A stretch of 64,000 nt of DNA from Chara braunii (Eukaryota > Plantae > Charophyceae), in NCBI GenBank assembly GCA_003427395.1, contig BFEA01000005.1:231149-295148 (forward strand), read 5' to 3'. How positions within the stretch are numbered: position 1 is the stretch's first letter; each line of letters opens with the position of its first letter. Both the position numbers and the translations under genes were made by a program. This document shows, piece after piece, positions 18,222 to 54,995 of this stretch. Under the pieces are notes generated by a model, which did not search any database, was not told the DNA's origin, and worked only from the letters and a program-made list of their open reading frames with translations.

Positions 18222-18943
18222 TGTCAGACTAAATACCCTTACAAGAGTATTCGACCATGCTTTTGCAGTCTACACAGCGACGACATCGGCTACCAAGACG
18301 GGGCCAATTCAAAGTTCAAGGCGCGTGCGTTTTTCGCACAACACTTTGGAACGATTTCCTCGACCTTTGATGTCGGGGCAAATTGGTGAGAAGCTTTTGT
18401 TAAGTATGCGCGCGCGTTATTGTGGCGAGTGCTCTGATGGTTAAAATCGGTAATAATACCCTTCGACTAAAAGGGTTGAGGGGTCGATTGGGTTATTGTT
18501 GTGTTGGGTAGACCTACGACATACATTGAGACTTAATCGTCAGTACGTAAGTCGGAATAAATTAATATACGCCATGACCATACAGCGACCATACGGCCGG
18601 AGCAAACTAAAAGTGTGTGATCATCGGGTCTGCAGTAGCGCCCGGATTGGTAAGCACTTGGTCAAGCAGTACCTCTGTCCTACTTATATACAACAAGTGA
18701 GGTTGAGGCTACCGCTCGACTTCCCATATGTAGAGAGGGATTTGCGTCTTGGGCGGTGACTTCCTGACCGCGTGGCCACCCAAGCAACCGGTATTTCCTC
18801 CCTTTCGGAATGAAACATCATTGCAGACTCTTATATCGTCCGTATATGCCATAAACGCAGACTACTTGAATTGGTATCCACCTACCTACCGGTACTGGGC
18901 CTCTAAAAATGACAACTTTTGTCTTTTTCTGCTCGGCCTCGAG
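18222..18943 (+). repeat. Truncated 3' LTR of element A
   Basis: TG start plus conserved AATACCCTTAC hairpin; 18401-18943 matches 1994-2525. Confidence 0.75.

Positions 18944-27188: not shown

Positions 27189-27272
<84 letters not shown>
27189..27272 (+). repeat. (GA)n microsatellite
   Basis: Seen directly. Confidence 0.98.
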
Positions 27273-27273
<1 letters not shown>

Positions 27274-34300: not shown

Positions 34301-34727
34301 AGATGGCGGACGCAAAGAAGATAATAAAGGTTGAAGAGTGTGTACCCCGCTCGTTTCTGAACGAAAGCGGGCAAGGAAAGATCCAGATCAGGGGTTTTTG
34401 ACGAGGGCGACCTCGATTCCGCCATTAGTTTGAGTAGGAAGTCCGTAGAATCGAAGTTAATAGAGAAAAACGGTGTGTGGAGGAGACGAAGAGGAGGAAT
34501 GGAAAAAGAAAGAAAGAAGGTAGTTCGCCTGTCTATCTATGAAATCAAGTGAATAGAGGCTCTAGGTAGGAGTTTTTGGCCATCGCGAGCTCGATGGCGG
34601 GGTTACTTTTTATGATGGTGTAGCATTTAGTTCGACATGAGCGCTGGGAGCTACATGGCCTACTATGGCGGAATATCGAAAGAGAGTGATGAGAAAGACA
34701 GTATCGGCTTGTGGAAGAATCAAAACG

Positions 34728-35242
34728 GGAGATAAGGAGGAAGTGTTGGAGAAGGAGGTTAGAAAGGGAGGGGAGAGATGCTAGTTGGAGGTTTTTGGGG
34801 TAGGCAACCCCAGATCTGTGGTTAGATTAGGCGGAGAATTAATAGAAGGGAAGTTAGTATTAAAAAGGGGGCAATTGAGTGTCAGGAGAAAGCGATAAGG
34901 AGATAAGGAGGAAGTGTTGGAGAAGGAGGTTAGAAAGGGACGGGAGAGATGCTAGTTGGAGGTTTTTGGGGTAGGCAACCCCAGATCTGTGGTTAGATTA
35001 GGCGGAGAATTAATAGAAGGGAAGTTAGTATTAAAAAGGGGGGCAATTGAGTGTCAGGAGAAAGCGATAAGGAGATAAGGAGGAAGTGTTGGAGAAGGAG
35101 GTTAGAAAGGGACGGGAGAGATGCTAGTTGGAGGTTTTTGGGGTAGGCAACCCCAGATCTGTGGTTAGATTAGGCGGAGAATTAATAGAAGGGAAGTTAG
35201 TATTAAAAAGGGGGGCACTTGAGTGTCAGGAGAAAGCGATAA
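34728..35242 (+). repeat. 3 x ~171-bp tandem amplification (single copy in the 3' LTR, ~49781-49952)
   Basis: GGAGATAAGGAGGAAGTG unit starts at 34728, 34899 and 35071. Confidence 0.95.
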
Positions 35243-37139
35243 GATGGAGGCGATGACTCATATCTCGCCCGTTTTCTGAGTAGAAGCGGGCGAACGAAGA
35301 CTCTTGTTTGGGATTTGCGGGCGTGGCGAATCTGATGGTAGCATCAGTTTTTGTGTTGAAGTAGTGGGCCAGCCTACATCAGTAGTGGGGGCTGCGTGCT
35401 CGTTAACCCCGCTCGGTTGGTCGGGCCGCCTGTGGCTCCGCAACTGTTCATCGCTTGACGAGATCGAAGAACCGTCGTTACTTTACTCATCCTCGTACCT
35501 GCTACCGGGGTCGACATCGGGACCCTGCTGCTCGTTAAACTGGTGTACCTAGTTTCGATCCAGCGGAAGGGGGGCATCCGACTTTGTTTATGTTTATCCC
35601 AGGAAGTAGCTTGAGGATAGACGTGGGATTAGAGGCCTAGCTATTGGCCGATGCACTGCCCGTCTTGACGATGGGGGTGACCTCCTGCTAGCTCCCTGTG
35701 TGCATGGTTGAAAAGCAGCGAGTATTTCTATGATCTAGCAGATGATTCATTATGATCATGCTATTCTGGCAATGGAGGTGGTGTGGGGCCAGCCGCAGGG
35801 GAGAGAGTGAACCGACGTACTGTTTGCAACCTATCGAGTACACAGATACGGCGGGCTAAGTTGGATCGTGTGGTATACTCACTACATTCCATTGGGACAA
35901 GTCTCGGAGGGGGAGGAAAGGAGTATATGCCCACCTGCTGTTGCACCATTCAGCTGTGGCTGTTAGCTGATTAGGTCCTTCCTGTCCGTAGGCATTGCAG
36001 TGCTGCCCATAACTACCACGGTCAGTTGAGTTCTCATATGTGTGGGGTTTTTGTGTATACGGTGAAGTGGTGTCTGTGGTGCATGATCGTTTGTGGTCGG
36101 TGGAGTGGCGTTACCGGCTTAAATTTTGCTAACATGATAGAGTCTAACTTGTTGTACGACTACTGCAGTTGCTGAGGATCTGGTACGGTTGCTGCCGTAG
36201 GGTCTCCTCCATGAGTGTTGCGGTTCATCTCACACTAAAGTGTAAACAAACTATAGACTAGGATAACCTGCGTTATACAACAATGAAGTCGCTTGACTTT
36301 GATTGTTGTTACTGCAGTAGTATTGTCAGTACTACGGCATCGCGACATGCCAGTTGTGGGGGAGGGAGGAAGCAGGTCAGACTGTTGACCAGTGCGCTAC
36401 TTATCCTACTGATCAAAGTAGCAGAAACCCAGCCGAAAGCTGAGAACTCAATAAAGGCTGCACAACCGGTATCTGTATACAATCTGCCTACTGCATGGCC
36501 AACAAGGCCGCATTGCCATTCTATTGTTGCGAGAGAAAAGGGGCTACTATTACAAGCTGAAGGATCATTAGGGGACCGACAGTGGGACGGTTAACTTCGG
36601 TTTGACCAGACTACTGCATGTTCTGGCTACCATTGTGGGACCCTCAGGCGATAGAAGGTAACGAGGCCCTCTCATAGGAGTTGAGTCAGTCCCTCTCTCG
36701 TATCTCAAACGCCTGAAACCCCTCCATTTATCCTTCTAACTATAAGTCTAATCTTGTTCTGAGAGGAAGGCGGCAGGCGGGATTGCAACCAGTAGGACCG
36801 CAACAAGACTCTGTGGGGAGTCAACCCACGGATTGCGTGAGCTCTGACGGAACTCAGGAAAAGTTCTGGAGGCAAGGAATTGGAAGGTAACCATTGCTCT
36901 CCCTTTATAGACCCTATTATAACCCCTATTTGTATTCCTTGCTATGTTTTGGCTGAGTATATTGAGTGCGCCTTTGCTTTGACTTTTTAGTTCGACTTTC
37001 AGGACACAAACCAGGCTAAGTAAAGGAATGTATGTACAATGTCAGTTCCAGTTTTATTTTTTGATTGAAAGCATATTGTGGGATTGCATCTGGGGGAAAG
37101 GTGGGAGAAAGTCAGTATTGCATGTTTGACTGGGTCAAC

Positions 37140-37865
37140 CAGAGGCTCGGAGAGTCTCCATAAGATTCGAGGGCCCAGTGCTATGTTTATTTTCGATTGT
37201 CTGGAAGACCAGACTGGTTCCCATAAGATTGGGTGGTCTGGTTGCTTTGACTTGTGAGGGCTGCATGCGTTTGATATTTTTAGGGACCAAGCATTTTTTC
37301 ATAAGATTGGATGATTTGGTTACGTTGCTTTCATTGGGTTTTTGATGTTTTGTTAGTTTCTGAAAGAGAGTTGGACATCTTCCATAAGATTGGATGACCT
37401 TGACTCTCTCTTGTTTTATTCTGAAAGGGAATTCATGCAAAGGATTGGACATGTTCCCATAAGATTGGGTGGTCTAGTCTGGAGCCACGCACATGCTGAA
37501 ACAAAAAGGTTAAATTTGTTTATATCTTATACTACATATTTATGAACAGACCAGTCATACATTTTTCCATAAGATTTGATAATCTGACTATAACTTATCA
37601 CCAACTAAAGAGAGTATGAATTAAGAATAAAACTGTGGTAAAAAGGGACAGGCTGAATCTTGATCTAAGATGACCGGTTCAGTCATATGTTGCCTTAAAA
37701 GACAAAGTGCAGAAAAATATATATAACTTGGATACTTAAATGGTTCATGACGATTAGGGTGACCTAGTCACATGCCCAAAGAAGAGAAAAGTTGTAGTGT
37801 ACTGTGTTTATGTATATTCAATGACTAAGTTAGACAAATTTCCATAAGATTGGGTGGTCTAGCTT
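37140..37865 (+). repeat. Hairpin array in 5' LTR of C: ~8 units, core YCCA-TAAGAT-TGGR
   Basis: Loops at 37161, 37224, 37302, 37385, 37460, 37570, 37666 and 37845; complementary outer stems such as GACCAGAC/GTCTGGTT. Confidence 0.88.
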
Positions 37866-38154
37866 TATGTCCTATGTAAGCTGGGTATAAAGGGATAAAT
37901 CATTGAAAGATTATAAACTATTGTTTGTTAAGAGGACTTTGGGGATGGTAAGAGTACTTACCTTTGTGGTTTTGTCTGCATGTGACTAAGTGAAGCTACT
38001 ACTTAGTTTGAGTTTTTGGTTGATAGGTAGTTGCTTTACTTGCTCGCCACGTGCTAGAGCCATAAAAGTTAGTTTCAATTGCTGCATTTTCTGAGTTAAG
38101 CTTATTTTACTTAGGTCAATTTCTGCATTTTCTGGGATCTTTTTGTGATGCTTG

Positions 38155-38730
38155 GTCTTGTATAAATCTTGGTAAGCCAATTTCTCTATGGGAATCGATG
38201 CCAAAATTTCTACAAAACCAATGAGTTAGTCAGATTTTATATGTTTCAGGGTCCAGTTTTTCTGACTTTTTAACTTAGTAAAAATTTGGGAAGCCTCCGT
38301 TTTTAAAGGGAGTGCTGCCCAAATTTTTGTTAATGCAGGGAGTTTGACAAAATTAGACTTTGAGAAGTCAAAATCATTTTTTGATTCTGAACTTAGCTTT
38401 GCATAAAACTTGAAATAACACTTTTTCTGCGGGAAGCGCTGCCAAAATTTTTACAAATTTAAGGAGTTAGTTAAATTTTGTCTTATTTGAACTCATGTCT
38501 TGTTTCTGAGTTCATATCTGACTTAGTATAAATTTGGGAAGTCTACCTTTCTAAAGAAAGTGCTGCCAAAATTTTTACTAATTTAGGGAGTTAGACAAAT
38601 TTTGACTTTCCAGAATTATAGTTTGAATTTTGTTTTCGTATTTGAGTTATTACAAATTCTGAGAAGACACTTTTCTTACGGGAAGCGCTGCCGAAATTTT
38701 TCTTAGATTAGAGGAGTTAGATTATATTTT
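38155..38730 (+). repeat. Second array: 5 x ~122-bp long-hairpin units with GGAAGYGCTGCCRAAATTT motif
   Basis: Motif near 38190, 38310, 38430, 38555 and 38680. The upstream arm (e.g. TAGTAAAAATTTGGG) pairs with CCCAAATTTTTGTTA. Confidence 0.8.
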
Positions 38731-40464
38731 GGGAGAGTGGCAATTCAAGCGATCCACTCTGCATAAAGGAGATTTTGCTAAAGATCTACCCTTTCTTTAG
38801 ACACTGACTTAGGGGTAGACGCAGTACGATGATTTTTGGTAGAATCATGATATGGAGATTACTCTCGATTTAGACTCATAGATTTAGCTTGGGGATTGGT
38901 CTGTCTTGTGTGACATGTCCTCTTGATGGATTGATTCAGGATTTGGGCTAGATTCAACTTGATCATACAAGAATCATCTTTTGTTATCACTGATAACAGG
39001 TCGGTTGTTGATTCGTTGGTTTACGATTCAACTTCAATCCACTCTTGTCACTCAACCTAAAGACTTTAGCCCTGTGGTTCGAAATGTTTCATTGTGTTTT
39101 TACCCGGACTTTATTAAATGGTCATTTAACAAAGGTACTGAATATTTTATTGCTGGAAGGGTGCGCTAAGGTTGAGGTTTATGTGGCTAAAGCAAGCGGT
39201 GTGAGCGCAGAGAATGCTTGAAGTTGAGCCCGTGTAGTGCATGAACTTTGGTTGAATCTTTGATGTGATTGCAAGTATGTTTGGTGTTTCAGATTGTGGA
39301 TTTGACTGACTGCAATCATACAGATATATATGGATGAGAGGAGTCTAACTGTGATTGTGAGAAGTGATCGTCACGTATTTCTAACCCTTTATATACATGT
39401 AAATACATATGTCTTAAGTGTTTCGCGCGACCTACTGCACGCAAGGGTTAAACAGATTATGTTTTTAACAGAAAAGGGAGATCCCTTGTTATCCTTTGTT
39501 TTTTAAAGGTTTTTATTGTTGAACGTTGTAGTCCGTGACAACCGTCAAAGTCAAACCCCTTGATTTCTCTTAGGCCCTGGATGATAGAACTGGTCTCCAG
39601 GGAAATAAGAGACGATTGTCACCACAGGTATGAACCTGTGTACCACCCTCTCTTCGTAGGGTGCAGAAGAGGGTGTGGGCGTCGAGAGATCAATCCCTCA
39701 AGGCGCGTGTCAGCCGACACTTGAGTGTCAAATGCGACCCTCGGGATTAACGAGGACCGCACGAGTATGGGTACTACATAGTACGCCATCATTGCGACTG
39801 CTTACGTATGCGTGCATGGCAAGTCGATATGAGTTAGCTCTGCGTTCGCGCGGTTTTATACTAAGTCTCGCGCGTGACGCCCATCCGATTTCCACATCGA
39901 AAAGTTATCGGATGGGTACTGAGGGACTAGGAGTGTTGCCACGTTGTTTGTCTTGTGTTGGTTTGTATATATGTGTGTATGTGTGTTTATTTATTTTTAT
40001 GTTCTTTAGAGTGGTATGCGTGTGGTGTGTGTGAGATGTGTCCTAGTCGACCGACGACGAGTCGCGCTTGGGACCTCAACCACCCAAGGCGTCGGTTCGC
40101 GTGAGGGTCTGATAGAGGCATAAAATCGCTCGTACCCCCTATGCTACAACGAACGAGAAACGTCATCGGTTGGTCCACCTCTGCGATTGCAGCTGATCAG
40201 CTTTCGTACTGTGGACTGGTAGCTCGGCGGGGATACGCCCACCGAAGGAAGGTGACAACTCCCGTAAGGTAGAGGTAAGTCGTGCCTCGCGTAGGCCCTA
40301 TCCTGTCGTAGGGGCTCGCGAGGCGTATGGATGGCGCACTCGACCGGAGCGGCTTGCGGAAGCTCCATGTGTATATCGAGACGCGGAATAAACCAACTCC
40401 TGCTTGACGCGGTCGGGAGGGTCCCGCCCCGTTTTCTGCGGTGCGGACCAATGCACTCGACAGG

Positions 40465-40483
40465 TGGCGCCGTTCCTGGGGAT
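40465..40483 (+). promoter_or_regulatory. Primer binding site, tRNA-Asp(GUC) type, element C
   Basis: TGGCGCCGTTCCTGGGGAT, 2 nt after the LTR-terminal CA. Confidence 0.88.
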
Positions 40484-42730
40484 AACGGTTGTCTGTCGTT
40501 GTCCCTGGTGGAACGACATCCGGGTATGAGAATGTGAGAAATAGGCAAAACGAGAAGTCTCTTTGGAGTTTTTATGGTTAATCAACTGATGGTATTGGAT
40601 AGAGAGTGATTAAGGGTTGACAGTGCGAGTTGGTTCTGTTTGATACAGTAAGGGTGGCACGAGAACAATAAACGCTTTAACTATGCGCTCACGTACTCTG
40701 ACTAGTATGTGGTAGTTGGAGTTGGTATGTCGTCTGATCCTGATAGCTGACGAGTTTGGACGATGGTTTGCATGCTTGATACAATTAAGATAGGATGAGG
40801 CGGTATCAACAGAGTTAAGTGTGATGGTTGTGGAAGTTGGTCCTATAAGGTACCTATTATGGTCGAAATGTTATCTGAGTGATTATGAGAGCAACTTGGT
40901 ACTTTTGTATTAGAGTGAGACCGAGGATGAGTAAGGGAGCCTATCACGTTAGAAGTCATTGAGGGACTTCGAGGAGAGTTAGGATAAGGGCGCTGAAAGT
41001 CTTTATAAACATAGATATGAGATCCTTGAGTCTGGGTTTTAAGCAGGTTGTTCGAATTATATAGTTGTGGAGGTGTGAAGTCTGCCCCGCGTGAGATGTT
41101 GTGAATTAGGCATATAAGGCGATAGGCAAATGCGATGAACAACGAGTTATGACTTTAACAGAAAAGACTACGGGAAGTAGTAGATCTGTATAACACCTTT
41201 TCGGCAAAAGGGGATATTTGATCCTAGAGGCAGTTGGGATAACAGTAAAAGAACCAGTGCTTAGACTATTTTGCTCACCCTTGATAGGGCGATGAGTTGT
41301 AGTTGATGTTAGACCTTTGCTTGAACCTTTCCAGGCTTGGACCATCCACTTGAATCTATGAGGCTGGAGCTAAGGACTTGAGGCTATTATCTTCTAAAGG
41401 CATTTTGTCTGAGTTATATATTGAACTCATTCATATATATCAGAGTTAATGTAAGTGAGTTTGTCAAGTGTCTAAATTATGTGAGGCTATGTGCTTGATG
41501 ATTACAAGAAATATTTACATAGGCTATGTATCTGAAGTATATATTTGGACTTATCAGTCTGCCAAAACTTATATGAGCGTCTCAAGTCCAATTATTAACT
41601 TATGGTTGTTTGTTAAGTTTATATGTTTGGATTGCCCTTCAAAGAGGGGTAAAGGCATTGCGCAGAATCCACGTGTGAGGCGGATTCAGAGGTGAATGGA
41701 GTGACCACTTCCCTGATATAAGTTTCTTCTCATAGAATGGTCAATGTGTAAGGTCTACCGCAAGGAAGATTGCAATCCTACATTATTTTTTTCCCCTGAG
41801 AGATGACTTTGAAGAAGTTATAATTTTGTCTTGTAGGTAGTCGTGAGACCCACGCCGGAACTCTGTTCCTGGTCCATAGTGGGGTGTTGTTGTTGTATCC
41901 TCTGTGATAAGAGGACCACACTACTACTGAATATGAGGAAAGTATTTGAGCCTTGTCTGACCATGGCCTACGAGGGAAACAACTACTATATGTTGCAGAG
42001 AGGTAGGGGGTGAATCCCAACTATTTTTGCGTCAAGTAGGTTCACCGGTACAGGACGGGATGGTGTATCCCGAAGAACGTATGGTGGGGTTGTTTACTTT
42101 GTCGGCAAGGGTCTGCAAGGAGCGAGTGCTGGAATCGGAGGGAGAAGCAGTGAGGCTTGATCCTTGAGTGGAGCTCGGGGGTTTGAGATGCTATTCATTC
42201 TAAAAAGGATTACACTGCCCCTCGTCATAGTATACTTTTGTCAAAGCCGGGGAATAAAGGGTAGTACTCTCACAAGAATTATGATTGAGAGTGCTATTTG
42301 TTAGCGACCTTGTTTTGATTATAATGTGCCTATTATATGATATGAATGTTGGGATAAACCTATTATTATGAGGTATACGATTTGGATAACTGAGTGGTTC
42401 GAGTATAAGGCAGTTGATATTTGTAAGTATTGTTGATGTCAGTTACTAAGGTAATATATTATTTCCATGAGTTAGAGTGATTATGGACATTTGATATTTG
42501 TAAATGTACTACTACCATGATATATTATCATTACTATTCCCTCTAAGCTGGGTGGTCGTAAACACTGAAAATGATAAAATTTTGTGAAAGGCGATTTGAA
42601 GTTAAGGCTTAAGTAGCAAGAAATTGTAGAATGCGATTGTTAGCATAATAACGGAAGACATATGCGGGATGTTTTTATGTGATGGACATAACCTAAACTA
42701 GAGTGAAGGCAACTCAGGATACCTTATGCT

Positions 42731-43393
42731 ATGGAAGATCCCAATATGACATTGCCTGTTAAAAGAGAAGATGACCTTAAAATTTCTTTGCGAAGGCGAG
42801 TCAAGGAAGGAGAATATATCTCTTCCTGGTGGGGCGCATCTATAGATAAGAGTATTTTCACATGGATCGAGTCCGGTTTTGATAATGGTAAGGACTGTGG
42901 GATCGTGAGGGTGACCTTGTATGCATCTTCCTCATTTTGGGTCAAGCATGGGATCGAGTTGACACTCGGGCATGGTAACCTACTTATAAGGCCTCTAAGG
43001 GAAGCCGAGGGAGCTGCAACGAAATGGGCAAGAGGAAAAATTTATGAGGGAGAGGAGCAGGTAGAGACTCGTATAGAGGTCAAGTCTGCCAAAAAGTTTG
43101 CACTTCCTTCAACCCCATTACGAGTTATCCTGCCTGAGTTTCTGGTAGAAAAGTGTTTCGGGGGACAGACAAGTGTAGAAGCCGCAACAAAAGCCACTTT
43201 GAAAACACGGGAATGGGGATATGCGCGGTATATGTGCGAGATTATATATGGTCCCTACCTGGACCAAAGGTCTATACCCCATAATCAAGGACTCATGAAT
43301 ATGATCAATATTGTTGATGCCTATGCAGACTCTTACGATCCAGATGAAAGGGTTGTAGACTGGGACGAGATTCGGACGATAGCGGGTAGATAG
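42731..43393 (+). CDS. Hypothetical 220-aa protein in the internal region of element C
   Basis: Intact ATG-initiated ORF with globular-looking composition; no motif recognised. Confidence 0.5.
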   Translation: MEDPNMTLPVKREDDLKISLRRRVKEGEYISSWWGASIDKSIFTWIESGFDNGKDCGIVRVTLYASSSFWVKHGIELTLGHGNLLIRPLREAEGAATKWARGKIYEGEEQVETRIEVKSAKKFALPSTPLRVILPEFLVEKCFGGQTSVEAATKATLKTREWGYARYMCEIIYGPYLDQRSIPHNQGLMNMINIVDAYADSYDPDERVVDWDEIRTIAGR

Positions 43394-43732
43394 GAAGTAC
43401 CCTCACACTCTGCCAACTGCATCTCTTGCAGACTTGTCCACGATCACCTCGTTATGCAATACGATTGCGAGGGTCAGTAACATTTGTAGCCGCGATTACA
43501 ACCGGCTTATGTCTGGCTTGAAAATCCTGCCTATATAGGTTGTATATTGTTCATAGTACCGTTAAAGTTAAAGCAAGGCTGACTAAAGTTTAGACCTTGT
43601 GGTGTGAGCGGGAAAGTAGTTAGTGTGAATTGAGTATTAGCAGTTTTTACTAGCCTCATTTGTTTTAAGTCTTTTTGCACCACGGTCTGATGATCGATTG
43701 CTTGTCATGCGTGTCAGACCAGTATAAACATC

Positions 43733-44854
43733 ATGGTTGAAGGAAGTGGCTTCGCTAAAATCTTGCACTGGAGGAGCTCGTGCCTCAACAAAGTGTCGCT
43801 GTGCGAGTCGGTACACGACTCGATGCCCCATGACCTTCGTGCCTTGCTGTTTCAGGGAAGGAGTTTGTCTGCCTTCCTATGCAACTATCACAACTTCAGT
43901 CTCATGAAGATGATGAATGAAAAATCGATGTGGAGCATGTTGCCATTGTTCGTTTGTGAAGAGTTGAGTGAGGAAGTGTATACTCTTATGTTAAAGTCGC
44001 AGACCTGGGGCGAGTTGGAGATTTCCTTGAGGTTAAGGTTTCCAGAAGGTGGAATAGAGAGTCCACATCGCGGGAAACACGTGCAGCCAGCTGAAGTTGC
44101 GTCAACACCAGGAGAGTTGAGTGGTATACAGAGGCAAGTTGGAATACTGAAAGAAAGGTTGACGCGACTGGAAGAGGCCAGGAAGGGCAAACGGAAGGTT
44201 TTAGAGGATGCCTCAAGTGAGCCGGCTGGTCAGGATGAAAGAGGAGCAGAGAGTGGTGACAGAGGGCCACCCCTCCTCAGGGGAACCACGAGAAAGCGGA
44301 CTAGTGCTCAAGGGAGACACGAGGGTAAAAAGGTGATTGAAGTAAAGGAGGAGCGTGATCATCCCAAGTCGACGAAGGCTCGGCAGAAGGTGAGGAACCT
44401 AGCGCTGGGAGGTCAAGGAACCGGAAAGGGGCAATGTTCGCGGCAAGTAGTGGCCACCCCGCAAGAATTGGGAGATAAAGCAACGTGGAAGAGACCTCTG
44501 TCAACCGAGGAGGCATTATATGGGCAGTGGATGCCATGCCATCAAATGAGTCTGTGGCCGATGTATAGTCCATATGTGTCATGGGCACAAGACAATTATT
44601 TGGATCCACAGGTAAGCATGATGCCGCCTAGGCCACCAACAGCCCAAACTCGACCAACTCAGTTTATGAGACCGTTGCAGCCGCCGACACAACAAGTGTC
44701 CCAAGGCAGCGTGGCTGATGGAGGAAGCCAAAGGCAGGAGGCTGGAAGGGGCCGCGGAAATGGCGGACGCGATAATAGAGGACGCGGTTACAGCAAGGGA
44801 GACACTGAAGGACGTGAGGGGCGCCAGCGAAACCATAATTGGAACGCAACGTGA
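43733..44854 (+). CDS. Gag-like protein (373 aa; helical N-part, coiled coil, basic and RG-rich tail)
   Basis: LFQGRSLSAFLCNY...MWSMLPLFV...TWGELEISLRLRF resembles a retrotransposon capsid N-terminal region; GRGRGNGGR tail; lies downstream of the PBS. Confidence 0.6.
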   Translation: MVEGSGFAKILHWRSSCLNKVSLCESVHDSMPHDLRALLFQGRSLSAFLCNYHNFSLMKMMNEKSMWSMLPLFVCEELSEEVYTLMLKSQTWGELEISLRLRFPEGGIESPHRGKHVQPAEVASTPGELSGIQRQVGILKERLTRLEEARKGKRKVLEDASSEPAGQDERGAESGDRGPPLLRGTTRKRTSAQGRHEGKKVIEVKEERDHPKSTKARQKVRNLALGGQGTGKGQCSRQVVATPQELGDKATWKRPLSTEEALYGQWMPCHQMSLWPMYSPYVSWAQDNYLDPQVSMMPPRPPTAQTRPTQFMRPLQPPTQQVSQGSVADGGSQRQEAGRGRGNGGRDNRGRGYSKGDTEGREGRQRNHNWNAT

Positions 44855-47313
44855 AAGGGGGCATGATGGTGGCAATTGCTATAGGGTAGAAAGATAGGGT
44901 TAGAGAGAATATAGTAGTGTGAGGAGGCGATTAACCCCCACCCTCTAGGCTATGAGGTTTTCAGCAAGAGGTCGGCCCTAGATCACTTGGGCTGTGTATG
45001 TACGTGGACATGAGATTTAAGATAGCGGGCTAACTGATCGTGTGAACCTAATTCCATGTCTTAGTCGGCGGGGTCCTGATTGTATAATGTATGAAGCTAC
45101 GAGATATATGTGCATGCTTTTAGCGCACCATGTGTATATGTTGAATCATAAGAGACTTTAGTTTAGATTAGATGAACATTTTTTAGGCTTTTGTGGCTGC
45201 TCAAGGATAGAATGGCTAGAACACGATCAAAGTATGAGAATGAGTCTTGTACGTGTATGGGTTGTTGAGGGCAAAAAATGGATGAGGGTATGGCTTAGAA
45301 CATATACTTGAGTGCAGTGAGTGATCATATGAGGATGCGATATTACTAAGAGCATTTGACTTTGATTGTGATGCTTGATTCTTTTAGACAAATACTTTGG
45401 GGGTATCACCTTGAGAGTCGAAGTAAGGTGATTGTGTTTTGGAAGCTAAGTTTCCTGTTAGCCATACTGCCTTGAGTTATAAGGGTGTACGCACCCATGC
45501 GTTTGTACATAGGATATGCATGAAATTTTGGTGAGTTTGAATCTGGGTTTTGAGAATCTATAGCCTATGAGAGATAAATATGTACAGCGTTCTTACTTGA
45601 GGTCATTATAAACTTTTTTTACTGACCAAGGCTTAGCGGACCTTGTGTCACTTTTGAATATTTTGGATATGTCTTGGATTACTTAGAGTCCTCTGACTTA
45701 AGGAGTGTGATTACGCCCTGACCAAGACAGTTTTTGTTTTAACTCTGGTCAGGGCGACCACAATTTTTGTGTGATAGCGGTGCCAGTTTGAGTTGAGATT
45801 GTTCAACTCTAACTATATATATGTAATTCAAGACCATATTTGGTTTGTTTTTTGAGTTGCGATATTACACCCCTAAGTGTATATTGAGTTGAGATTTTAT
45901 CTAAGACTATTCCCCTGTATATGACGATCACAATCATGTGTGGTTTAATCATGATGTATGATGGCTATGTGTGAGAGATGTATGAGAAACATCTCATATG
46001 CCGTGTATTTTGTGAATGTGAATGAATATGAACTGTCTACTCTTCGGTATACTCGTGCGATCTACCTTTGAGCGAATGATAGGGCCAGGTATAAGGAGAG
46101 AGAGTGCAGTCTGTCTCTGTAAAAAATGTGAAAATCCCAAGGGATTTATGAGTCTTTGAAACTCGAATGCTTACCATGCCAAATGTTTATGGATGAGTTG
46201 TGGTGAGGATCCATAAGTTGGTCTCTCAGTTCGAGTTGTTTTATGGTTAAAACATCCTCGAGAGAGGAAGATAGTCGTCTGTTTGTTGGGAGGTTTATCT
46301 AAGGAAGGTGTTTCAAGAGAAAGGTCGTGTGAGAGTTCATCCTGGAAACATAAGGGATGACTTGGAGACCTATTGAGTGAGACCTCCTTTATATGAAAGG
46401 TGGTTAATAGATTTAATGGCATGGAAAACCGGTTTTGAATGATGAAGACTGATGAGGAGGACCAAGTTTTTATTTGGCTATTGGTGAAATTTTGAAGGTC
46501 GTAAAAGTGATTTATTTGGGAGATGTCACTGAGAGGTAATTTTCTTACTCTGATCAAGTAGGGAGGTCACGACCTTGTGAATCTGGCGGTGATTTTGTTT
46601 TGTGAAAATGGAGAGGTTGCCGTGATTCTCTGTGTTGTCCCGCAGAGGACTGGTAAATACCTTTTATGTGTGAAAGACCTTTGCATAGTCCCGCAGTAGG
46701 CCTGTATTGTTGCGACAACCGTCCAACCACTTGTGCTAATCTTAGGGTATTTATGAGAATACCAAGTTAACGATAAAGTTTAGCATCACTAGGGCGCAAC
46801 CCCTAGTGTTGGCTGCTGATCGGCGTAACCTGAACAACGGGTCTACGTTTTGCCAAGGGGGTAAAGACTTAAAGGGGTGTGGCCACCTAGGAAGGTTTTA
46901 CTCCTGCGGAACGGTGTGGGATAGAAGTCGACTCGAGTCTTTTTGAGTTTCTGATTGAATGCTTATCAGGAGAAAGCCTATCGTGGCGCAACTTGCGATG
47001 GCACTACCACTAAAATAACAACACGGTGGGCCGTAGATCTGGCACGATCACCCAGACTATGGTGAACCAGGATGGAGACCCGACCTTCATGTACTAGACT
47101 GCAGAAAGAGTCTATGATGAAATTTGTATGTATATATATGTTTGATAGCGAAATTTGTTGGACGGAGGCAAAAATATCTCCAAAGGTCTCGGTTAGGGCC
47201 CGCGTTTCTGGTTATGGCCCTGCTTGCAGGATAGAGAGTAGGGACACCTAACAAGGAACCGGCGTTTGTCTATGACAAAGGGGAGAGGACAGTTGAGGAA
47301 TCCATCTAGGACT

Positions 47314-47394
47314 TATGTTGTAGTATAGTGATGAGTATCCCACTGTTCTAGTGTCAAAATGATGGAGACCCAGGTTGGAATCCTGACAGCATAA
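47314..47394 (+). ncRNA. tRNA-Asp-like cloverleaf in 3' UTR of element C (not a functional tRNA gene)
   Basis: TATGTTG-TAGTATAGTGATGAGTAT-CCCACTG...GG-AGAC-CCAGG-TTGGAAT-CCTGA-CAGCATA; D and T regions follow plant tRNA-Asp, acceptor stem changed on both strands. Confidence 0.78.
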
Positions 47395-50300
47395 AGTTGT
47401 GTTTGGAAAAATTGATGGAGGCCTCGAACCCGAGTTTGTCGGCTGATCGGATTGGTTTCTTTCTCATCAACATTTTTGGAGTTGGATGAATTTATAGCTT
47501 TCTGAATTTGCGAAGCAACGGGGACGTCGCTTAATATGATCCGGTAAGCTGTCGGTGCGAATACCCTTACATGGGTATCCGCCCTAGTTTTCGCAAGCAA
47601 CAAAAAGTAAGTTTAAATTAAAAATTAAGTACACCGTGTGAGGCGTGCCTGAGGCTATGGTTTACGTTGACTAGGTGGCAGACTAGAGCAGAGGGTGTGT
47701 GGGCGCGCAGGCTTGAGGCGTGCGTGGTTTTATTTGTTGATGATTGAAGAACCGGCATGATCGCCAACCAAATTTTTTATTTTTTTTTTATTAAACTTGG
47801 ATTAAAGAGATTTTTGTCTTTTGATTGATGTGTTTACCGATGACTCGTGCGTACGTGCGGAGGACGACATCGACAACAATGTGACGTTGAAGGCATTTTG
47901 GTAAATCTACACGTCGTGCAATATCTATTTTCGTAGGGATCAGTCGATGCTAGACTCAGCCTTGGGCCCAGTAGTGTCGGTTACAGCATCGAACTTTCAT
48001 CAGAGAGATTTAAGGATCGAGATCGAGCGACGACAGAGCGGGAATATCAGAGTAGAGAGAAGGGATCGAGGGGTTGAGGGCCCGGCGGGTCTATCCCCCT
48101 TGATATTGTCGTCGACAACGTCGGGACGGTATTAGCGGTTCCTTTTTCTTATCTGCCGCCTGACGCTTAATTTTTCCTGAATAATTTATCTTTCGGTTTT
48201 TGAGATAGGCGCGGAATCAGTTTTAGGGGCCATCGCGGCAGTCGACGACCTTGCCCACACCTCTCTTTTTGGTTGACTTACTAATTCCTATATATTCTGG
48301 GTGCCATAAAATCCCTTTGTCTTATTTGACTTGAAACGAGGACCGACGAGTTCAATGTGCATGCGAGCTGGTGGGCGATTAACCCACAAGGTGGGAGAAA
48401 CCCGGCCGGTGCGGGCTCTATCAGGGAGTACCGCCCACCAGCCCCGGATTGCTGCAGGAGGTTTAGGGTGTGAACATGCCCGCTGAGAGGTCACCATGGG
48501 TGAGTCCGCAGCGGTATTGGCTGCGCGGGAGGTGTACGTGGGACCCTCCACCACGACGGTCCACAAGGTTCTCATTGAATATCTATTGCTGCCACCAAGA
48601 TCCGTGTCGGGGGCCCGCCCCCGACACTGTGACCTCTGTCTGTGTCTAGGCCATGCGGCTTGAGGAGGAAGTGGGCTCTGCCTAAGAGGGATGAGCCAGG
48701 AGAAACCCGACAGAGGGCTGACAGCGAGGGGCGGCATGCGAATCGCTCGTCGGGCCTGGGCTATAGAGGCGGGGGACGAACCGTATAGTAGCCGGTCACA
48801 GTACAGAACCTCTTGCATAGCGTTTAGGGCGGACTGCGCTAGGCACTGGGGGACTATTGTGGGCGGAAAGCTGCGTTAGTAACTCAGGCAGAGCGGGACA
48901 GAATGAGGGCCGGACGCAACAACGAAGGCAAAGAAAGGGAGGAATGCACCCAGATGCGAATTCACGCCGGGTGCATTCAACACAAGGAGAAACAGAGATG
49001 GCCAGATGGTGAGTCGGGGCGCCGCAGGAGAGAGTGGACTCGCACGGTACTTCATAGTTTTAAGCGAGAAGAGTATAGTTTTGGAGGTTTTGAGGGAGGG
49101 CGATTTCAGGTACAAAGTTAGTTTTTAGTTAGATTAGTAGATATGGAGGTAGGAAGAAAAATGGTCGCCCGGAGCTATGGCGGAGGGAGAAGACTATGAG
49201 AGCGATAAGTTTGAATCTAGCTCAATCCTCGATGGATTCGAGCGGGATAAGAAGCGAAGTGGGGGCTTTAAGGTCGGGCGAGCTTAGTGGTAATGTTAGT
49301 TTTGATGCTAGGTTAGTAGAATTAGAGTTAGTAAAGTAAAGTTTTGTGCGAAGAGATGGCGGAAGCAAAGAAGATAGAAAAGGTTGAAGAGTGTGTAGCC
49401 CGCTTGTTTCTGAACGAAAGCGGGCGGGGAAAGATCCAGATCGAGTTTTTTTTACCAGGGCGACCTCGATTCCGCCGTTAGTTTGAGTAGGAAGTTAGTA
49501 GAATCGAAGTTAATAAAGAAAAACGGTGCACGGAGGAGACGAAGAGGGGGAACGGAAAAAGAGAGAGAGAAGGTAGTTCGTTTGTCCCTTTATGAAATCA
49601 AGTGAATGTAGGCTCTAGGTAGGAGTTTTTTGCCATCACGAGCTCGATGGCGGGGTTAGTTTTTACGATGGTGTAGCAGTTAGTTCGACATGAGCACTGG
49701 GAGCTACACGGCCTACTATGGCGGAATATCGAAAGAGAGTGATGAGAAAGAAAGTGTCGGTCTGTGGAAGAATCGGAACGGGAGATAAGGAGGAAGTGAT
49801 GGAGAAGGAGGTTAGAAAGGGAGGGGAGAGATGCTAGCTAGAGGTTTTCGGGGTAGGTGACCCCAGATCTGTGGTTAGATTAGGCGGAGAATTAATAGAA
49901 GGGAAGTTACTATAAAAAAGGGGGGCACTGGAGTGTCGGGAGAGCGAGATAAGATGGAGGCGATTACTCATATCTCGCTCGTTTTCTGAGTAGAAGCGGG
50001 CGAACAAAGACCCTAGTTTGGGATTTGCAGGCGTGGCGAATCTGATGGTAGCATCAAATTTTGTGTTTAAGTAGTGGGCAAGCCTACATTAGTACTGGGG
50101 GCTGCGTGCTCGTTAACCCCGCTCGGTTGGTCGGGCCGCCTGTGGCTCCACTGCTGTTCATCGATTGACGAGATCGAAGAACCGTCGTTACTTTACTCAT
50201 CCTCGTACCTGCTTCCGGGATTGACATCGGGACCCTGCTGCTCGTTAAACTGGTGTACCTAGTTTCGATCCAGCGGAAGGGGGGCATCCGACTTTGTTTA

Positions 50301-51859
50301 AGTTTATCCCAGGAAGTAGCTTGAGGATAGACGCGGGATTAGAGGCCTACCTATTGGCCGATGCATTGTCCGTCTTGACGATGGGGGTGACCTCCTGCTA
50401 GCTCCCTGTGTGCATGGCTGAAAAGCAGCAAGTATTTCTATGATCTAGCGGATGATTCATTATGATCATGCTATTCTGGCAACGGAGGTGGTGTGGGGCC
50501 AGGCGCAGGGGAGAGAGTGAACCGGCGTACTGTTTGCAGCCTACTGAGTACGCAGATACGGCGGGCTAAGTTGGATCGTGTGGTATACTCACTACATGCC
50601 ATTGGGACTAGTCTCGGAGGGGGAGGAAAGGAGTATATGCCCACCTGCTGTTGCAGCATTCGGCTGCGGCTGTTATCCGAATTGGTCCTTCCTGTCCGTA
50701 GGCATTGCAGTGCTGCTCATAGCTACCAAGGTTTGTTGAGTTCAAATTTGTGTGGGGTCTTTGTGTATACGGTGAAGTGGTGTCAGTGGTGCATGATTGT
50801 TTATAATCGGTGGAGTGGCGTGACCAGTTTAAACTTTGCTAACAGGATAGAGTCCAACTTGTTGTACGACTACTGCAGTTGTTGAGGATCTGGTATGGCT
50901 GCTGCCATAGGGTCTCCTCCATGAGTGTTGTGGTTCATCTCAGATTAAAGCGTGAACAAACTATAGACTAGGATAACCTGCGTTATGCAACAGTGAAACC
51001 GCTTGACATTGATTGTTGTTACTGCAGTACTTTTGTCAGTACTACGGCATCGCGGCATGCCAGTTGTGGGGGAGGAAGGAAGCAGGTCAGACTGTTGACC
51101 AGTGCGCTACTTATCCTACTGATCAAAGTAGTAGGAACCTAACCGAAAGCTGAGAAGTAGTAGAGGCTCAATAAGGGCTGCACAACCGGTATCTGTATAC
51201 AGTCTGTCTGTTGCATGGCCAGCAAGACCGCATTGCCATTCTATCGTTGCGAGAGAAAAGGGGCTACTATTGCGAGCTGAAGGATCATCAGGGGACCGAC
51301 AGTGGGAGGGTTAACTTCGGTTTGACCAGACTACTGCATATTCCGACTACCATTGCGGGGCCCTCAGGTGATAGAAGGTAACGAGGCTGTCTCATGGGAG
51401 TTGCGTCAGTCCCTCTCTCGTATCTCGAGCGTCTGAAACCCCTCCTGCTATCCTTCTAACTCTAAGTCTAATCTTGTTTTGAGAGGAAGGCGGCAGGCGG
51501 GATTGCAACCCGTAGGACCGCAGCAAGGCTCTGTGGGAAGTCAACCCACCGATTGCGGGATTTCTGTCGGAATTGTGGAAGAGTTCTGGAGGTAGGGAAT
51601 TGGAAGGTAAGCATTGCTTTCCCTTTATAAACCCTGTTATAACCCCTATTTGTATTCCTTGCTATGTTTTGACTGAGTATATTGAGTGCGCCTTTACTTT
51701 GACTTTTCAGTTTGACTTTTAGAACACAAACCAGACTAAGTAAAGGAATGTATGTACAATGTCAGTTTCAGTTTTATTTTTTGATTGAAAGCATATTGTG
51801 GGATTGCATCTGGGGGAGAGGTGGGAGGAAGTCAGTATTGCATGTTTGACTGAGTGAAC

Positions 51860-52580
51860 CAGAGGCTGGGAGAGTCTCCATAAGATTGGAGGGCCCAGTG
51901 CTATGTTTATTTTCGATTGCCTGGAGGACCAGAAAGGTTCCCATAAGATTGGGTGGTCTGGTTGCTTTAACTTGTGAGGGCTGCATGCGTTTGACTTTTT
52001 CAGGGACCAATTCCATAAGATTGGATGGCTTGGTTGCCTTGCTTTCATTGAGTTTTCTTATATTTTGTTAGTTCATGAAAGAGAGTTAGGCATGTTCCAT
52101 ACGATTGGATGACTTTGACTCTCTCTTGTTTTATTCTGAAAGGGAATTCATGCAAAGGACTAGACAGGTTCCCATAAGATTGGGTGGTCTGGTTTGGAGC
52201 CACGCACATGCTGGAACAAAAAAACTAATTTTGTTTATATCTTGTACTACATATTTATGAACTTGCTAGTCAGACATTTTTTCATAAGATTGGATGGTCT
52301 GACTATAGCTTATCACCAATTAAAGAGAGTATGGATTAAGAATAAAATTGTGGTAAAAAAGGACATGTTGAATCTTGATCTAAGATGACCTATTCATTCC
52401 TATGTTGCTTTAAAAGACAAAGTGCAGACAAATATATATAACTTGGATACGTAAATGGTTCAGGGCGACTAGGGTGGCCTAGTCACATGCCCAAAAAAGA
52501 AAAAAGTTGTCGTGTTAAGTGTTTGTGTACATTCTATGGTTGAGCTAGACATGTTTCCATAAGAGTGGGTGGTCTAGCTT
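51860..52580 (+). repeat. TAAGAT hairpin array, 3' LTR copy
   Basis: Orthologous to 37140-37865. Confidence 0.88.
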
Positions 52581-53205
52581 TATGCCCTATGTAAGCTGGG
52601 TATAAAGGGATAAATCATTGAAAGATTATGAACTATTGTTTGTTAAGAGGACTTTTGGGATGGTAAGAGTACTTACCTTTATGGTTTGGCTTGCATGTGA
52701 CTGAGTGAAGCTACTACTTAGTTTGAGTTTTTGGTTGATAGGTAGTTGCTTTAGTTGCTCGCCACGTGCTAGAGTCATATGAGTTAGTATAATTGCTGCA
52801 TTTTCTGAGATAAGTTTATTTTACTTAGGTCGATTTCTGCATTTTCTGGGATCTTTTTGTTATACTTGGTCTTGTATAAATCTTGATAAGCCACTTTCTC
52901 TACGGGAAGTGCCGCCGAAATTTCTAAAAAACCAATGAGTTAGTTAGATTTTGTCTGTTTCAGGGTCCAATTTTTTCTGACTTTTTGACTTAGTAAAAAT
53001 CTTGTAAGCCTCCGTTTTTAAAGGGAGTGCTACCCAAATTTTTATTAATTCAGGGAGTTAGACAAAATTAAACCTTGAAAAGTCAAAGTTATTTTTTGAT
53101 TGTGAACTTAGTTTTGTATAAATATTGAAATAACACTTTCTCTACGAGAAGCGGCGCCGAAATTTTTACAAATCTAAGGAGTTAGTTAAATTTTGTCTTA
53201 GTTGA

Positions 53206-53466
53206 ACTCATGTCTTGTTTCTGAGTTCATATCTGACTTAGTATAAATGTGGGAAGTCTACCTTTCTAAAGGAAGTGCTGCCCTAATTTTTACTCATGTC
53301 TTGTTTCTGAGTTCATATCTGACTTAGTATAAATGTGGGAAGTCTACCTTTCTAAAGGAAGTGCTGCCCTAATTTTTACTCATGTCTTGTTTCTGAGTTC
53401 ATATCTGACTTAGTATAAATGTGGGAAGTCTACCTTTCTAAAGGAAGTGCTGCCCTAATTTTTACT
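53206..53466 (+). repeat. 3 x 86-bp identical tandem repeat (single copy in the 5' LTR)
   Basis: ACTCATGTCTTGTTTCTGAG unit starts at 53206, 53292 and 53378. Confidence 0.97.
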
Positions 53467-54995
53467 AATTCAGGGAGTTAGACAAATTGTGACTTTCCAG
53501 AATTAGAGTTTGGATTTTGTTTTCGTATTTGATTTATTATAAATTTTGAGAAGACATTTTTCCTACGGGAAACGCTGCCGAAATTTTTCTTAGTTTAGAG
53601 GAGGTAGATTATATTTTGACATGTGACAATTTTGACAATTCACTTTATATAGAGGAGATTCTGTCAAAGATCTACCCTTTCTTTAGGCACTGACTTAGGG
53701 GTAGACTCAGTAAGATGATTTTTTGTGGAATCATGATACGGAGATTACTCTCGATTTGGACTCATAAATTTAGCTTGGGAATTGGTCTGTCTTGTGTTAC
53801 AGGTCCTCTTGATTGATTGATTCATAATTTGAGCTAGAATCAGTTTGATCCTATAAGGATCTTGTTCTGTTATCACTGATAACAGGTCGGTTGCCAATTC
53901 GTCAGTTTACGATTCAACTCCAATCCACTCTTGTCACTCTACCTAAAGGTTTTAGCCCTGTGGTTTGAAATGTTTCATTGTGTTTTTACCTGAAATTTAT
54001 TGAATGGTCATTTAACAAAGGTACTGAATATTTTATTGTTGGAAAGGTGTGCTAAGATTGAGGTTTGTGTGGCTAAAGCAAGGGGTGTGAGCGCAAAGAA
54101 TGGTTGAAGTTAACCCCGTGTAGTGCATGGACTTTGGTTGAATCTTTAATGTGATTGCAGGCATGGTTGGTGTTTCGGACTTTGGATTTGACTGTCTGCG
54201 ATCATACAGATATATATGGCTGAGAGGAGTCCCACTGTGATTGTGAGAAGTGATCGTCACATATTTATAACCCTTTATATACATGTAAATACATCTGAAT
54301 TAAGTGTTTCGCGCGGCCTACTATGACCGCGCGCAAGGGTTAAACAAATTATGTTTTTAACAGAAAAGGGAGATCCCTTGTTATCCTTTGCTTTTTAAAA
54401 GTTTTTAAAGGGTCCCGCCCCGGGTGCCGGACCGATGCGCTCGACAACGTTTTAGTCGACCGACAGCGAGTCCTGCTTGGGACCTCAGCCCCCCAATGCG
54501 TCGATTCGCGTGCGGGTCCGATTGAGGGGCGTTTGACTTCGTGTACCCCCTATGTTTTTTTTTTTTGCTTGTTTTTTTTTCTGATGTTTACATTTTATGA
54601 CTCTGCATAGTTTGTTCGCAAATATTTCGACAACATTGCTTGTAGCGATGCGGCGAAAAACCTCGAATTTTTGACCTTTCGTTAACCACTTCTGTACAGC
54701 GAACGAGAAAACGCCCTCGGTCGGGCTACCTCTGCGATTGCATATAAAAAGCCTTTGCACGTGGTTCGGTAGCTCGGCGGGGATACACCCACCCAAGGGA
54801 TGGTGACAAGTTGATAACTCCCGCGGGTGGAGGTAAGTTGTACCTCACGTAACCCTATCCTGTCATAGCGGTTGGCGAGAGGTATGGCTGACGCACTCGG
54901 CCGGAGTGACAAAACGCTCTACTACGAAGTCCTGCAAAATCATGCGTGACGCGGCCGAGAGGGTCCCCCTGCGGGACCAATGCGCTCGACATCAG

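What the first reader, a model, noticed from the sequence alone, without database searches (positions are those of the whole stretch)
47314..47394. tRNA-Asp-like cloverleaf conserved just upstream of the 3' LTR (also at 17979-18080)
Seen: both A and C carry a tRNA-shaped element ending ~140-155 nt before the 3' LTR. D and T regions resemble plant tRNA-Asp(GUC), the same tRNA used as primer. The 7-bp acceptor stems differ yet remain paired (TATGTTG/CAGCATA; ACTGTTG/CAATGGT). The anticodon loop is replaced by variable insertions and the T loop is no longer TTCGA. Established: tRNA mimics such as MALAT1 mascRNA and viral tRNA-like structures recruit RNase P/Z or other tRNA factors. Inference: an exapted tRNA mimic for RNA cleavage, RT binding or plus-strand priming. 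The 3' end of the C copy does not match the PBS well, so it is unlikely to be a self-encoded minus-strand primer.
Basis: partly seen in the sequence, partly recalled or inferred. Interest (0 to 1): 0.85.

Follow-up and report, generated by a model that had tools for sequence, protein, structure and literature searches.

The report
Retrotransposons keep a captured tRNA shape
Two distantly related retrotransposons, likely from a stonewort alga, each carry a worn-down copy of an aspartate tRNA just before their right-hand terminal repeat; its stems stay paired while the DNA on both sides has drifted apart, so it is likely a folded signal that helps the element's RNA dock on its copying machinery rather than a working tRNA.

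Summary
The feature is real. 47314-47394 matches a model built from real plant tRNA-Asp genes at 44.6 bits (E about 7e-11, partly circular). 17979-18080 is its positional homologue in a distant relative. Both lie in the internal 3' region of LTR elements with no pol, 155 and 141 nt before the 3' LTR. The elements are primed by tRNA-Asp, and the only named protein relatives are from Chara braunii.

The tRNA-like is an island of conservation between flanks that are no more alike than shuffles. It keeps 18 and 19 of 21 stem pairs (neutral P about 0.014 and 0.023; 0.15 each with strong CpG decay). It is not a working tRNA. Both copies lack C56, the base whose loss blocks plant RNase P in published assays, so cleavage of the mascRNA type is unlikely. 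There is no sign of a separate SINE insertion.

Best reading (inferred, 0.4): a primer-tRNA mimic kept as a folded cis signal for Gag/RT. Neither element has a polypurine tract at its 3' LTR; both have a conserved GNRA hairpin 18-19 nt upstream. Only two old copies could be read and nothing functional was tested.

The parts
47314..47394 (+). tRNA-Asp-derived element of element C: acceptor 47314-47320/47387-47393 (7/7 paired; U8 can also pair with A65), D stem 4/4, anticodon stem 3/5 around a 17-nt loop, T stem 4/5, T loop without C56
17979..18080 (+). Homologous tRNA-derived element of element A: acceptor 7/7, D stem 4/4 with a replaced loop, anticodon stem 5/5 around a 38-nt insert, T stem 3/5, T loop without C56 and G57
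47514..47531 (+). Conserved hairpin with a GGGA (GNRA) loop, 18 nt before the 3' LTR of C, near where a polypurine tract is expected; 6 of 7 pairs in this copy
   Evidence: (most laid contigs read G at 47517, which pairs)
18185..18202 (+). Same GNRA hairpin in element A (7 of 7 pairs), 19 nt before the 3' LTR
46775..47100 (+). Conserved non-coding block upstream of the tRNA-like (homologue 17516-17835, 57% identity), with an 8-bp hairpin at 46787-46808 showing changes on both sides
40465..40482 (+). Primer-binding site of C, complementary to the tRNA-Asp 3' end, 2 nt after the 5' LTR
12312..12329 (+). Primer-binding site of A, complementary to the tRNA-Asp 3' end, 2 nt after the 5' LTR end at 12309
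32500..40462 (+). 5' LTR of element C (about 8 kb)
47550..54446 (+). 3' LTR of element C (about 6.9 kb; lacks about 0.9 kb near its end relative to the 5' LTR); K about 0.09-0.10 to the 5' LTR
18222..18943 (+). Start of the 3' LTR of element A (matches 1993-2525 at 86%; its full extent was not traced)
43694..44854 (+). ORF2 of C, likely Gag-like (a lead only: Atlas look-alikes of a homologue are Retrotrans_gag/Ty3_capsid clusters; one homologue ends in a CCHC knuckle). No RT, RNase H or integrase was found in C or A
42707..43393 (+). ORF1 of C, no known domain; 3 relatives, all named Chara braunii hypothetical proteins

Best explanation
An ancestor of these retrotransposons captured a tRNA-Asp-type sequence, the tRNA type that their primer-binding sites match, and the family likely keeps it as a folded signal in the 3' part of its RNA that would help these elements, which carry no pol gene, dock on the Gag/reverse-transcriptase particle of a helper element. 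Shown: tRNA origin, one shared position in two elements whose neighbouring DNA no longer aligns, kept stems, lost anticodon, lost C56. Inferred: that selection rather than chance keeps the stems (about 0.7), and that the helix folds in the full RNA. Untested: that the partner is Gag or RT, and that the use is packaging or placing the 3' end for strand transfer. The kept parts are the acceptor plus T helix (12 bp in C, 11 in A when U8 pairs with A65) and the D stem. The parts read by Pol III factors, RNase P and ribosomes are the ones that have gone.
For: Island of conservation: A against C is 23/28 and 21/34 in the two halves, while the flanks on both sides score like shuffles (-7.4 vs -15.1 +/- 8.8; -0.1 vs 0.9 +/- 8.1). 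Stem pairs kept: 18/21 with 13 stem changes in C, and 19/21 with 10 in A; neutral P = 0.014 and 0.023 at a transition bias close to that of the LTR pair. Acceptor alone: 7/7 in both, P 0.003-0.012 and 0.007-0.05; pairs 1 and 2 are different base pairs in tRNA-Asp, C and A. The same elements keep other helices with changes on both sides: 3 of the 8 shared helices in four homologous blocks, against 0-0.1 per block in shuffles. Four of 16 listed contig pieces, 82-85% alike, bridge the whole tRNA-like with 1-2 gaps, so other copies carry the region in place. Both PBSs match tRNA-Asp. Precedent for primer-tRNA mimicry in a retroelement RNA: the HIV-1 tRNA-like element that binds lysyl-tRNA synthetase (PMC5689005, abstract).
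Against: Only two copies were read, both old, and the stems were aligned by hand after the fact. With an eightfold CpG effect the whole-stem P rises to 0.15 in each copy; the measured CpG excess in the LTR pair is only about 1.4-fold (18/103 vs 57/463). Folding z-scores are not significant. In 730-800 nt of context the acceptor helix is not predicted in A (probability 0), and in C it falls from 0.9 to 0.09 when longer pairings are allowed. The bin over the 5' half has the lowest laid depth of the 16 internal bins in both DNA runs (517 and 996), so that half is not especially constant among copies; the bin includes the variable insert. The HIV-type mimic works through a synthetase, and the anticodon here is lost. 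No binding was tested, and the helper element was not seen.
Confidence: 0.4

Rival explanations
1. Neutral passenger: a tRNA gene or tRNA-derived SINE head landed in the ancestral element and has simply been carried along. The pairing survives because C-to-T decay leaves G-U pairs and CpG decay hits both arms of a stem.
For: All five acceptor changes in A are transitions from tRNA-Asp. The G-C to A-T swaps at 30:40 (A), 51:63 and 3:70 (C) sit in CpG on both arms. P = 0.15 per copy under CpG x8. No significant folding energy. Low laid depth over the 5' half.
Against: The flanks have diverged to random while the tRNA-like has not. Pairs 1 and 2 of C changed by four transversions and still pair. 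The measured CpG excess is small. No target-site duplication or A-tail flanks either copy.
Confidence: 0.25
2. Plus-strand priming module: the tRNA-like and the GNRA hairpin together would set the plus-strand primer in elements that have no polypurine tract, for example by holding RT/RNase H so that an RNA piece ending 2 nt before the LTR is spared.
For: The 15 nt before the LTR hold only 8 (C) and 10 (A) purines, with no run longer than 5. The hairpin is 16/18 identical between A and C at a fixed 18-19 nt from the LTR. Laid depth rises from about 1,000 at 47470 to about 44,000 at 47517 in run X1.
Against: The tRNA-like ends 141-155 nt from the LTR, and the DNA between it and the hairpin is not conserved. 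A weak purine-rich tract may suffice. No intermediate was seen.
Confidence: 0.12
3. Pol III promoter or TFIIIC-binding element: the A and B boxes drive a short RNA or act as a chromatin barrier, as proposed for Helenus.
For: C has near-complete boxes (one change each at G19 and C56). A T5 run follows both copies, at 47473 and 18112.
Against: A has lost the A-box GG and has two changes in the B box. Loss of C56 in both copies after insertion has a chance of roughly 0.05 x 0.07 from the LTR divergences. Conservation covers stems, not only boxes, the reverse of Helenus (PMC10886601).
Confidence: 0.1
4. RNase P/Z cleavage site of the mascRNA type that cuts the element's RNA at 47314 or 47394.
For: The acceptor-T helix, which these enzymes measure, is the best-kept part. 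The anticodon arm is dispensable for PRORP (75% cleavage without it, PMC5039416 table).
Against: C56G (C) and C56A with G57C and no G18 (A) are the changes that reduce PRORP cleavage to 0-30%. Flanking bases can extend the acceptor stem in C. A cut here would sever the template from its 3' repeat (inference).
Confidence: 0.08
5. Self-encoded minus-strand primer: the tRNA-like is cut out, gains CCA and primes at the element's own PBS.
For: In A the 3' end pairs with the PBS at -22.8 kcal/mol, within the best 0.3% of internal windows.
Against: Real tRNA-Asp pairs at -37.4. In C the value is -16.0 (best 9%) against -35.2, with four mismatches next to the 3' end. The match in A follows from descent, since C-to-T changes still pair with G.
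Confidence: 0.03

Closest known systems
Helenus / TRIMp3 non-autonomous LTR retrotransposons (Kojima 2024, PMC10886601; part 1 of 6 and passages seen)
   Same: A non-autonomous LTR element carrying a tRNA-derived sequence that is not a working tRNA.
   Different: Helenus is under 1 kb, has the tRNA piece inside both LTRs and conserves Pol III boxes A and B rather than the fold. Here element C is about 22 kb, the piece is single, internal and near the 3' LTR, the boxes are damaged and the stems are kept.
HIV-1 tRNA-like element at the PBS (PMC5689005, abstract seen) and the tRNA-Lys3 gene-like sequence in HIV-1 U3-R (Piekna-Przybylska 2010; title seen in a reference list; content recalled)
   Same: A retroelement RNA carries a likeness of its own primer tRNA and uses it in replication.
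   Different: The HIV element is a structural mimic beside the PBS that binds a synthetase. The U3-R sequence is, as recalled, complementary to the primer. Here the piece is a captured tRNA in the sense orientation, upstream of the 3' LTR, without an anticodon.
Athila-type Ty3/Gypsy elements (Athila, Calypso, Diaspora; PMC1142308, PMC6317226 and 10.64898/2026.03.20.713144, passages seen)
   Same: tRNA-Asp-type PBS a few bases after the 5' LTR, long LTRs, long non-coding regions.
   Different: Those passages describe a polypurine tract at the 3' LTR and mention no tRNA-like. Here no tract abuts the LTR, the LTRs are 7-8 kb, and no RT is present to place the family.
mascRNA/menRNA and viral tRNA-like structures (recalled; TLS papers seen only in the listing)
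   Same: Acceptor plus T helix kept, anticodon arm altered.
   Different: Those are processed or lie at an RNA 3' end and keep the features read by RNase P/Z or synthetases. This one is internal and lacks C56.
tRNA dimer in mosquito cqgypsy_1 (PMC3286476, passages seen)
   Same: tRNA sequence captured inside a Gypsy element.
   Different: There it is a recent insertion of two intact tRNAs at the PBS with a 26-nt duplication, absent from relatives. Here it is old, remodelled and shared by distant relatives.

Membership tests
Functional tRNA gene | Recognised cloverleaf with a 7-nt anticodon loop | tested here: not met
   ARAGORN 0 genes; no Rfam tRNA hit at E<=10; loops of 17 and 38 nt
Functional tRNA gene | G18, G19 and C56 | tested here: not met
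   C: G19A and C56G; A: no GG, C56A, G57C
tRNA-Asp-derived sequence | Sequence and stem match to tRNA-Asp(GTC) above chance | tested here: met
   the 3' half of C is equally His-like, and only Asp and His were compared
Helenus/TRIMp3 | tRNA-derived sequence inside the LTRs of an element under 1 kb | tested here: not met
   internal, single copy per element; C spans 32500-54446
Helenus/TRIMp3 | Conserved boxes A and B | tested here: not met
   young copies were not seen
Independent SINE insertion | Own target-site duplication and tail | tested here: not met
   no flanking repeat of 6 nt or more in C; only a 7-nt T-rich match in A. An old duplication could have decayed
Independent SINE insertion | Dispersed copies outside the host element | not testable with these tools
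   no genome held; within the window no third significant copy
mascRNA-type RNase P/Z substrate | T-loop and D-loop bases needed for cleavage | tested here: not met
   (PRORP mutant table); whether this alga uses PRORP in the nucleus is assumed from recall
mascRNA-type RNase P/Z substrate | RNA ends at the tRNA-like borders, CCA-tailed small RNA | not testable with these tools
   only oligo-dT reads were laid, at depth 1-2 there
Athila lineage of Ty3/Gypsy | tRNA-Asp/Asn-type PBS shortly after the 5' LTR | tested here: met
   compared with passages
Athila lineage of Ty3/Gypsy | RT/RH/INT phylogeny | not testable with these tools
   A and C carry no pol; the nearest gene model P0005 has protease and H2C2 integrase but no RT
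Athila lineage of Ty3/Gypsy | Polypurine tract abutting the 3' LTR | tested here: not met
   8 and 10 purines in the last 15 nt

The most novel reading that the evidence does not exclude
A family of giant-LTR algal retrotransposons has turned a captured copy of its primer tRNA into a structured 3' replication module: tRNA mimic plus GNRA hairpin. The module binds reverse transcriptase and sets plus-strand priming without a polypurine tract.
Probability: 0.12. Interest if true: 0.85.

Novelty: new variant of a known kind. Interest (0 to 1): 0.5.

Why it matters
Captured small-RNA genes in LTR retrotransposons are known as Pol III promoters in the LTR (Cassandra, Helenus, Ajax). A captured primer-type tRNA kept for its fold in the internal 3' region, after losing its promoter and processing marks, would be another use. 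It would offer a concrete, mutable candidate for how elements without pol are recognised by a helper's Gag/RT. With the missing polypurine tract it also gives a direct test of whether LTR elements can prime the plus strand in another way. If it proves neutral, it is an ordinary fossil.

Tried and rejected
No whole genome is held. No relative of the hairpin-plus-LTR motif was found in metagenome or prokaryote-genome contigs, none for tRNA-like patterns in viral contigs, and none for ORF2 in viral contigs. So no covariation across many copies could be run, and the letters that most copies carry at G19, C56 and the acceptor ends are unknown.

No RNA holder was listed. Oligo-dT runs X5 (7 reads laid) and X6 (599 reads, both strands) show no pile-up of ends; this is no evidence either way.

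Rfam gave only weak hits of both copies to SpF41 (RF02435; E 3.1 and 0.7), not counted as evidence. The single-sequence fold of ORF2 was unusable (pLDDT 39). P0004 looked like an autonomous partner but is a mixed gene model: the ORF1 and ORF2 homologues follow the RT/integrase part, so it was rejected.

The structure given was off by one column; the +1 slide is the hairpin (14/14 cells paired, 2 changes on both sides, 7 pairs). The 46787 hairpin probabilities used the same wrong register and are void.

A tRNA-intron origin of the anticodon inserts was considered (PMC13578239, section 11: 5-34% of tRNA genes have introns in streptophyte algae) and left open; A keeps no anticodon. A third copy upstream of the LTR start at 24302 was sought, but that is a solo LTR with no internal region beside it. 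Earlier scan findings: none.

Full report
SETTING. The window is a nest of LTR elements. Self-comparison gives element C with a 5' LTR at 32500-40462 and a 3' LTR at 47550-54446. The LTR start is fixed by loose ends at 47550 in 85 and 90 contigs of two DNA runs. C sits inside a related solo LTR, B (24302-32499 plus 54447-54991). Element A has its 5' LTR end at 12309 and its 3' LTR start at 18222. Both A and C have a PBS 2 nt after the 5' LTR that pairs with tRNA-Asp (-37.4 and -35.2 kcal/mol). Neither shows pol: A has no stop-to-stop frame above 110 aa internally, and the two long ORFs of C have no Pfam hit (0 of 2). ORF1 has 3 relatives and ORF2 4 longer ones, all named Chara braunii proteins; a full HMMER scan finds only 14 clusters. 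A charophyte host is therefore inferred. ORF2 is likely Gag-like: Atlas look-alikes of a homologue are Retrotrans_gag/Ty3_capsid clusters at 0.87-0.90, a lead only. LTR divergence is K 0.09-0.10 in C and 0.136 in A, so each copy has decayed by about 5-7% since insertion.

THE OBSERVATION. To get real tRNAs I scanned metagenome contigs with a 14-nt piece of the C copy and a piece of the PBS complement (127 loci). ARAGORN names 134 of the 141 genes in them tRNA-Asp(GTC). A covariance model from 11 of these genes plus one tRNA-His scores 47314-47394 at 44.6 bits, E 7e-11, and the A copy at 11.8 bits, E 0.41. The first score is partly circular. The 3' 33 nt of tRNA-Asp, which were not selected on the tRNA-like, match best at A (23/33, top of 123,450 positions), and C (20/33) ties for second with two other sites. 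Arm by arm, C is 25/30 to Asp in the 5' half and 20/33 in the 3' half (His: 19/30 and 21/33). A is 17/22 and 23/33 (His: 12/22 and 19/33). Both copies share departures from Asp: T3, A30, A at the start of the variable loop, A59-T60 and A65. The A59-T60 pair differs from what the PBS needs, so this is an old, remodelled capture and not a fresh copy of the primer. ARAGORN and Rfam's tRNA family do not call either copy.

INHERITED, NOT A SEPARATE SINE. A and C align in four blocks at 57-70%: the LTR end with the PBS, an internal block, a block at 46775-47100, and the hairpin with the LTR start. The tRNA-like lies between the last two in both. Four of the 16 contig pieces listed (13,136 not shown; all from one study, possibly the source sample) are 82-85% alike and bridge the whole tRNA-like with 1-2 gaps. 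No flanking duplication of 6 nt or more is found in C, and only a 7-nt T-rich match in A.

IS THE FOLD SELECTED? For: the halves are 23/28 and 21/34 identical between A and C, while the DNA on each side scores like shuffles. C keeps 18 of 21 stem pairs despite 13 stem changes from Asp, and A keeps 19 of 21 despite 10. Neutral simulation gives P = 0.014 and 0.023 with transition bias 4, which is close to the LTR pair (145/62 and 165/87 transitions/transversions). The acceptor is 7/7 in both, and pairs 1 and 2 differ in all three molecules. In both local folds U8 pairs with the shared A65, lengthening the acceptor to 8 bp. The elements also keep other helices with changes on both sides (3 of 8 shared helices). 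Against: stems were aligned by hand on two copies chosen because they looked paired. Several swaps sit in CpG on both arms, and with CpG x8 P is 0.15 per copy, although the measured excess is about 1.4-fold. z-scores are -1.12 and +1.01. In long context the acceptor helix vanishes in A and depends on the allowed span in C. The 5' half has the lowest laid depth of 16 internal bins. I put selection on the fold at about 0.7.

WHAT FOR? What is lost narrows the field. The anticodon loop is replaced by 17 and 38 nt. C56 is G in C and A in A; A also has G57C and no G18/G19, and C has G19A. Two independent losses of C56 after insertion have a chance of about 0.0035, so the loss is probably older. In the PRORP table of PMC5039416, C56G and C56A give 0-30% cleavage, position-57-to-C 10-25% and G18A 15%. 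C-to-U at 56 is tolerated by PRORP3 but is not what is seen here. This counts against mascRNA-type cutting, and the same bases form the Pol III boxes (established knowledge). Self-priming fails in C and is explained by descent in A. What remains is a stem scaffold of the primer-type tRNA in the 3' part of an RNA that must be packaged and copied by proteins supplied from elsewhere. My best reading is a docking signal for Gag/RT (0.4; partner and use inferred). The nearest precedent is primer-tRNA mimicry in HIV-1 (PMC5689005, abstract).

A SECOND ODDITY. Neither element has a polypurine tract at the 3' LTR: the last 15 nt hold 8 and 10 purines, whereas the Athila-type passages read describe a tract there. 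Instead a 7-bp hairpin with a GGGA loop ends 18-19 nt upstream. It is 16/18 identical between A and C and is predicted to form in long context (0.6-0.98 for the pairs that can form), though its folding z-score is not significant. At 47517, where C breaks a pair, 43,567 of 44,442 depth units in run X1 read the pairing base. Whether the tRNA-like acts with this hairpin in plus-strand priming is the boldest open reading (0.12).

LITERATURE. Ten full-text searches listed no paper on a tRNA-like sequence in the internal 3' region of plant or algal LTR elements; I saw only their top listings. Seen: PMC10886601, part 1 of 6 and passages; PMC3286476, PMC1142308, PMC6317226, PMC11963269 ('tRNA' 0 times), PMC5039416, PMC11241228 and 10.64898/2026.03.20.713144, passages; PMC13578239, passages and section 11; PMC5689005, abstract. 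mascRNA, the content of Piekna-Przybylska 2010 and tRNA position numbering are recalled. The library lacks most subscription papers and repeat databases, and no supplements were read, so an existing annotation of this Chara family could have been missed.

VERDICT. The feature is real, inherited and probably under structural selection. It is not a tRNA, not Helenus and probably not a cleavage site. Its function is inferred from two old copies. New variant of a known kind; interest 0.5.

Noticed in passing
window 47514-47549 and 18185-18221: No polypurine tract at either 3' LTR; a conserved GNRA-loop hairpin sits 18-19 nt upstream instead, and laid contig depth there is far higher than just upstream.
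   Followed up: partly
window 41591-42250 and 15705-16381: A 60%-identical non-coding block of about 680 nt shared by A and C, with no Rfam hit; it holds a pyrimidine-rich stretch ending in TAG near 41838 that resembles a splice acceptor.
   Followed up: partly
window 40124-40556, 11990-12402, 54699-54991: The LTR end is conserved in A, B and C, with shared helices that change on both sides (40339/40417, and a 10-bp hairpin at 40478-40506 that overlaps the end of the PBS).
   Followed up: partly
window 29407-30442: Array of about 12 copies of a short hairpin-forming core at 61-68 nt spacing with variable spacers, inside solo LTR B.
   Followed up: no
window 26028-26082: Fragment like the 5' 60 nt of U6 snRNA (32.7 bits, E 0.00025, below Rfam's gathering score of 44) inside solo LTR B, a second captured small-RNA piece in this family.
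   Followed up: no
window 32496-32499/54447-54450 and 24298-24301/54992-54995: C and B both appear to have 4-bp target-site duplications with a mismatch at the first base; most plant LTR elements have 5 bp (PMC6317226).
   Followed up: partly
window 23700-24301 and 54992-58000: B appears to interrupt a decayed Ty3/Gypsy pol on the minus strand (read by eye; not confirmed by a domain hit).
   Followed up: no
window 728-1322, 6839-7600, 10925-11556: Repeats of about 600-700 nt in direct and inverted orientation, possibly terminal inverted repeats of a DNA transposon inside A's 5' LTR region.
   Followed up: no
window 25074-25430 and 58008-58769: Long near-perfect inverted repeats that give weak miRNA-precursor hits in Rfam, all far below gathering scores.
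   Followed up: no
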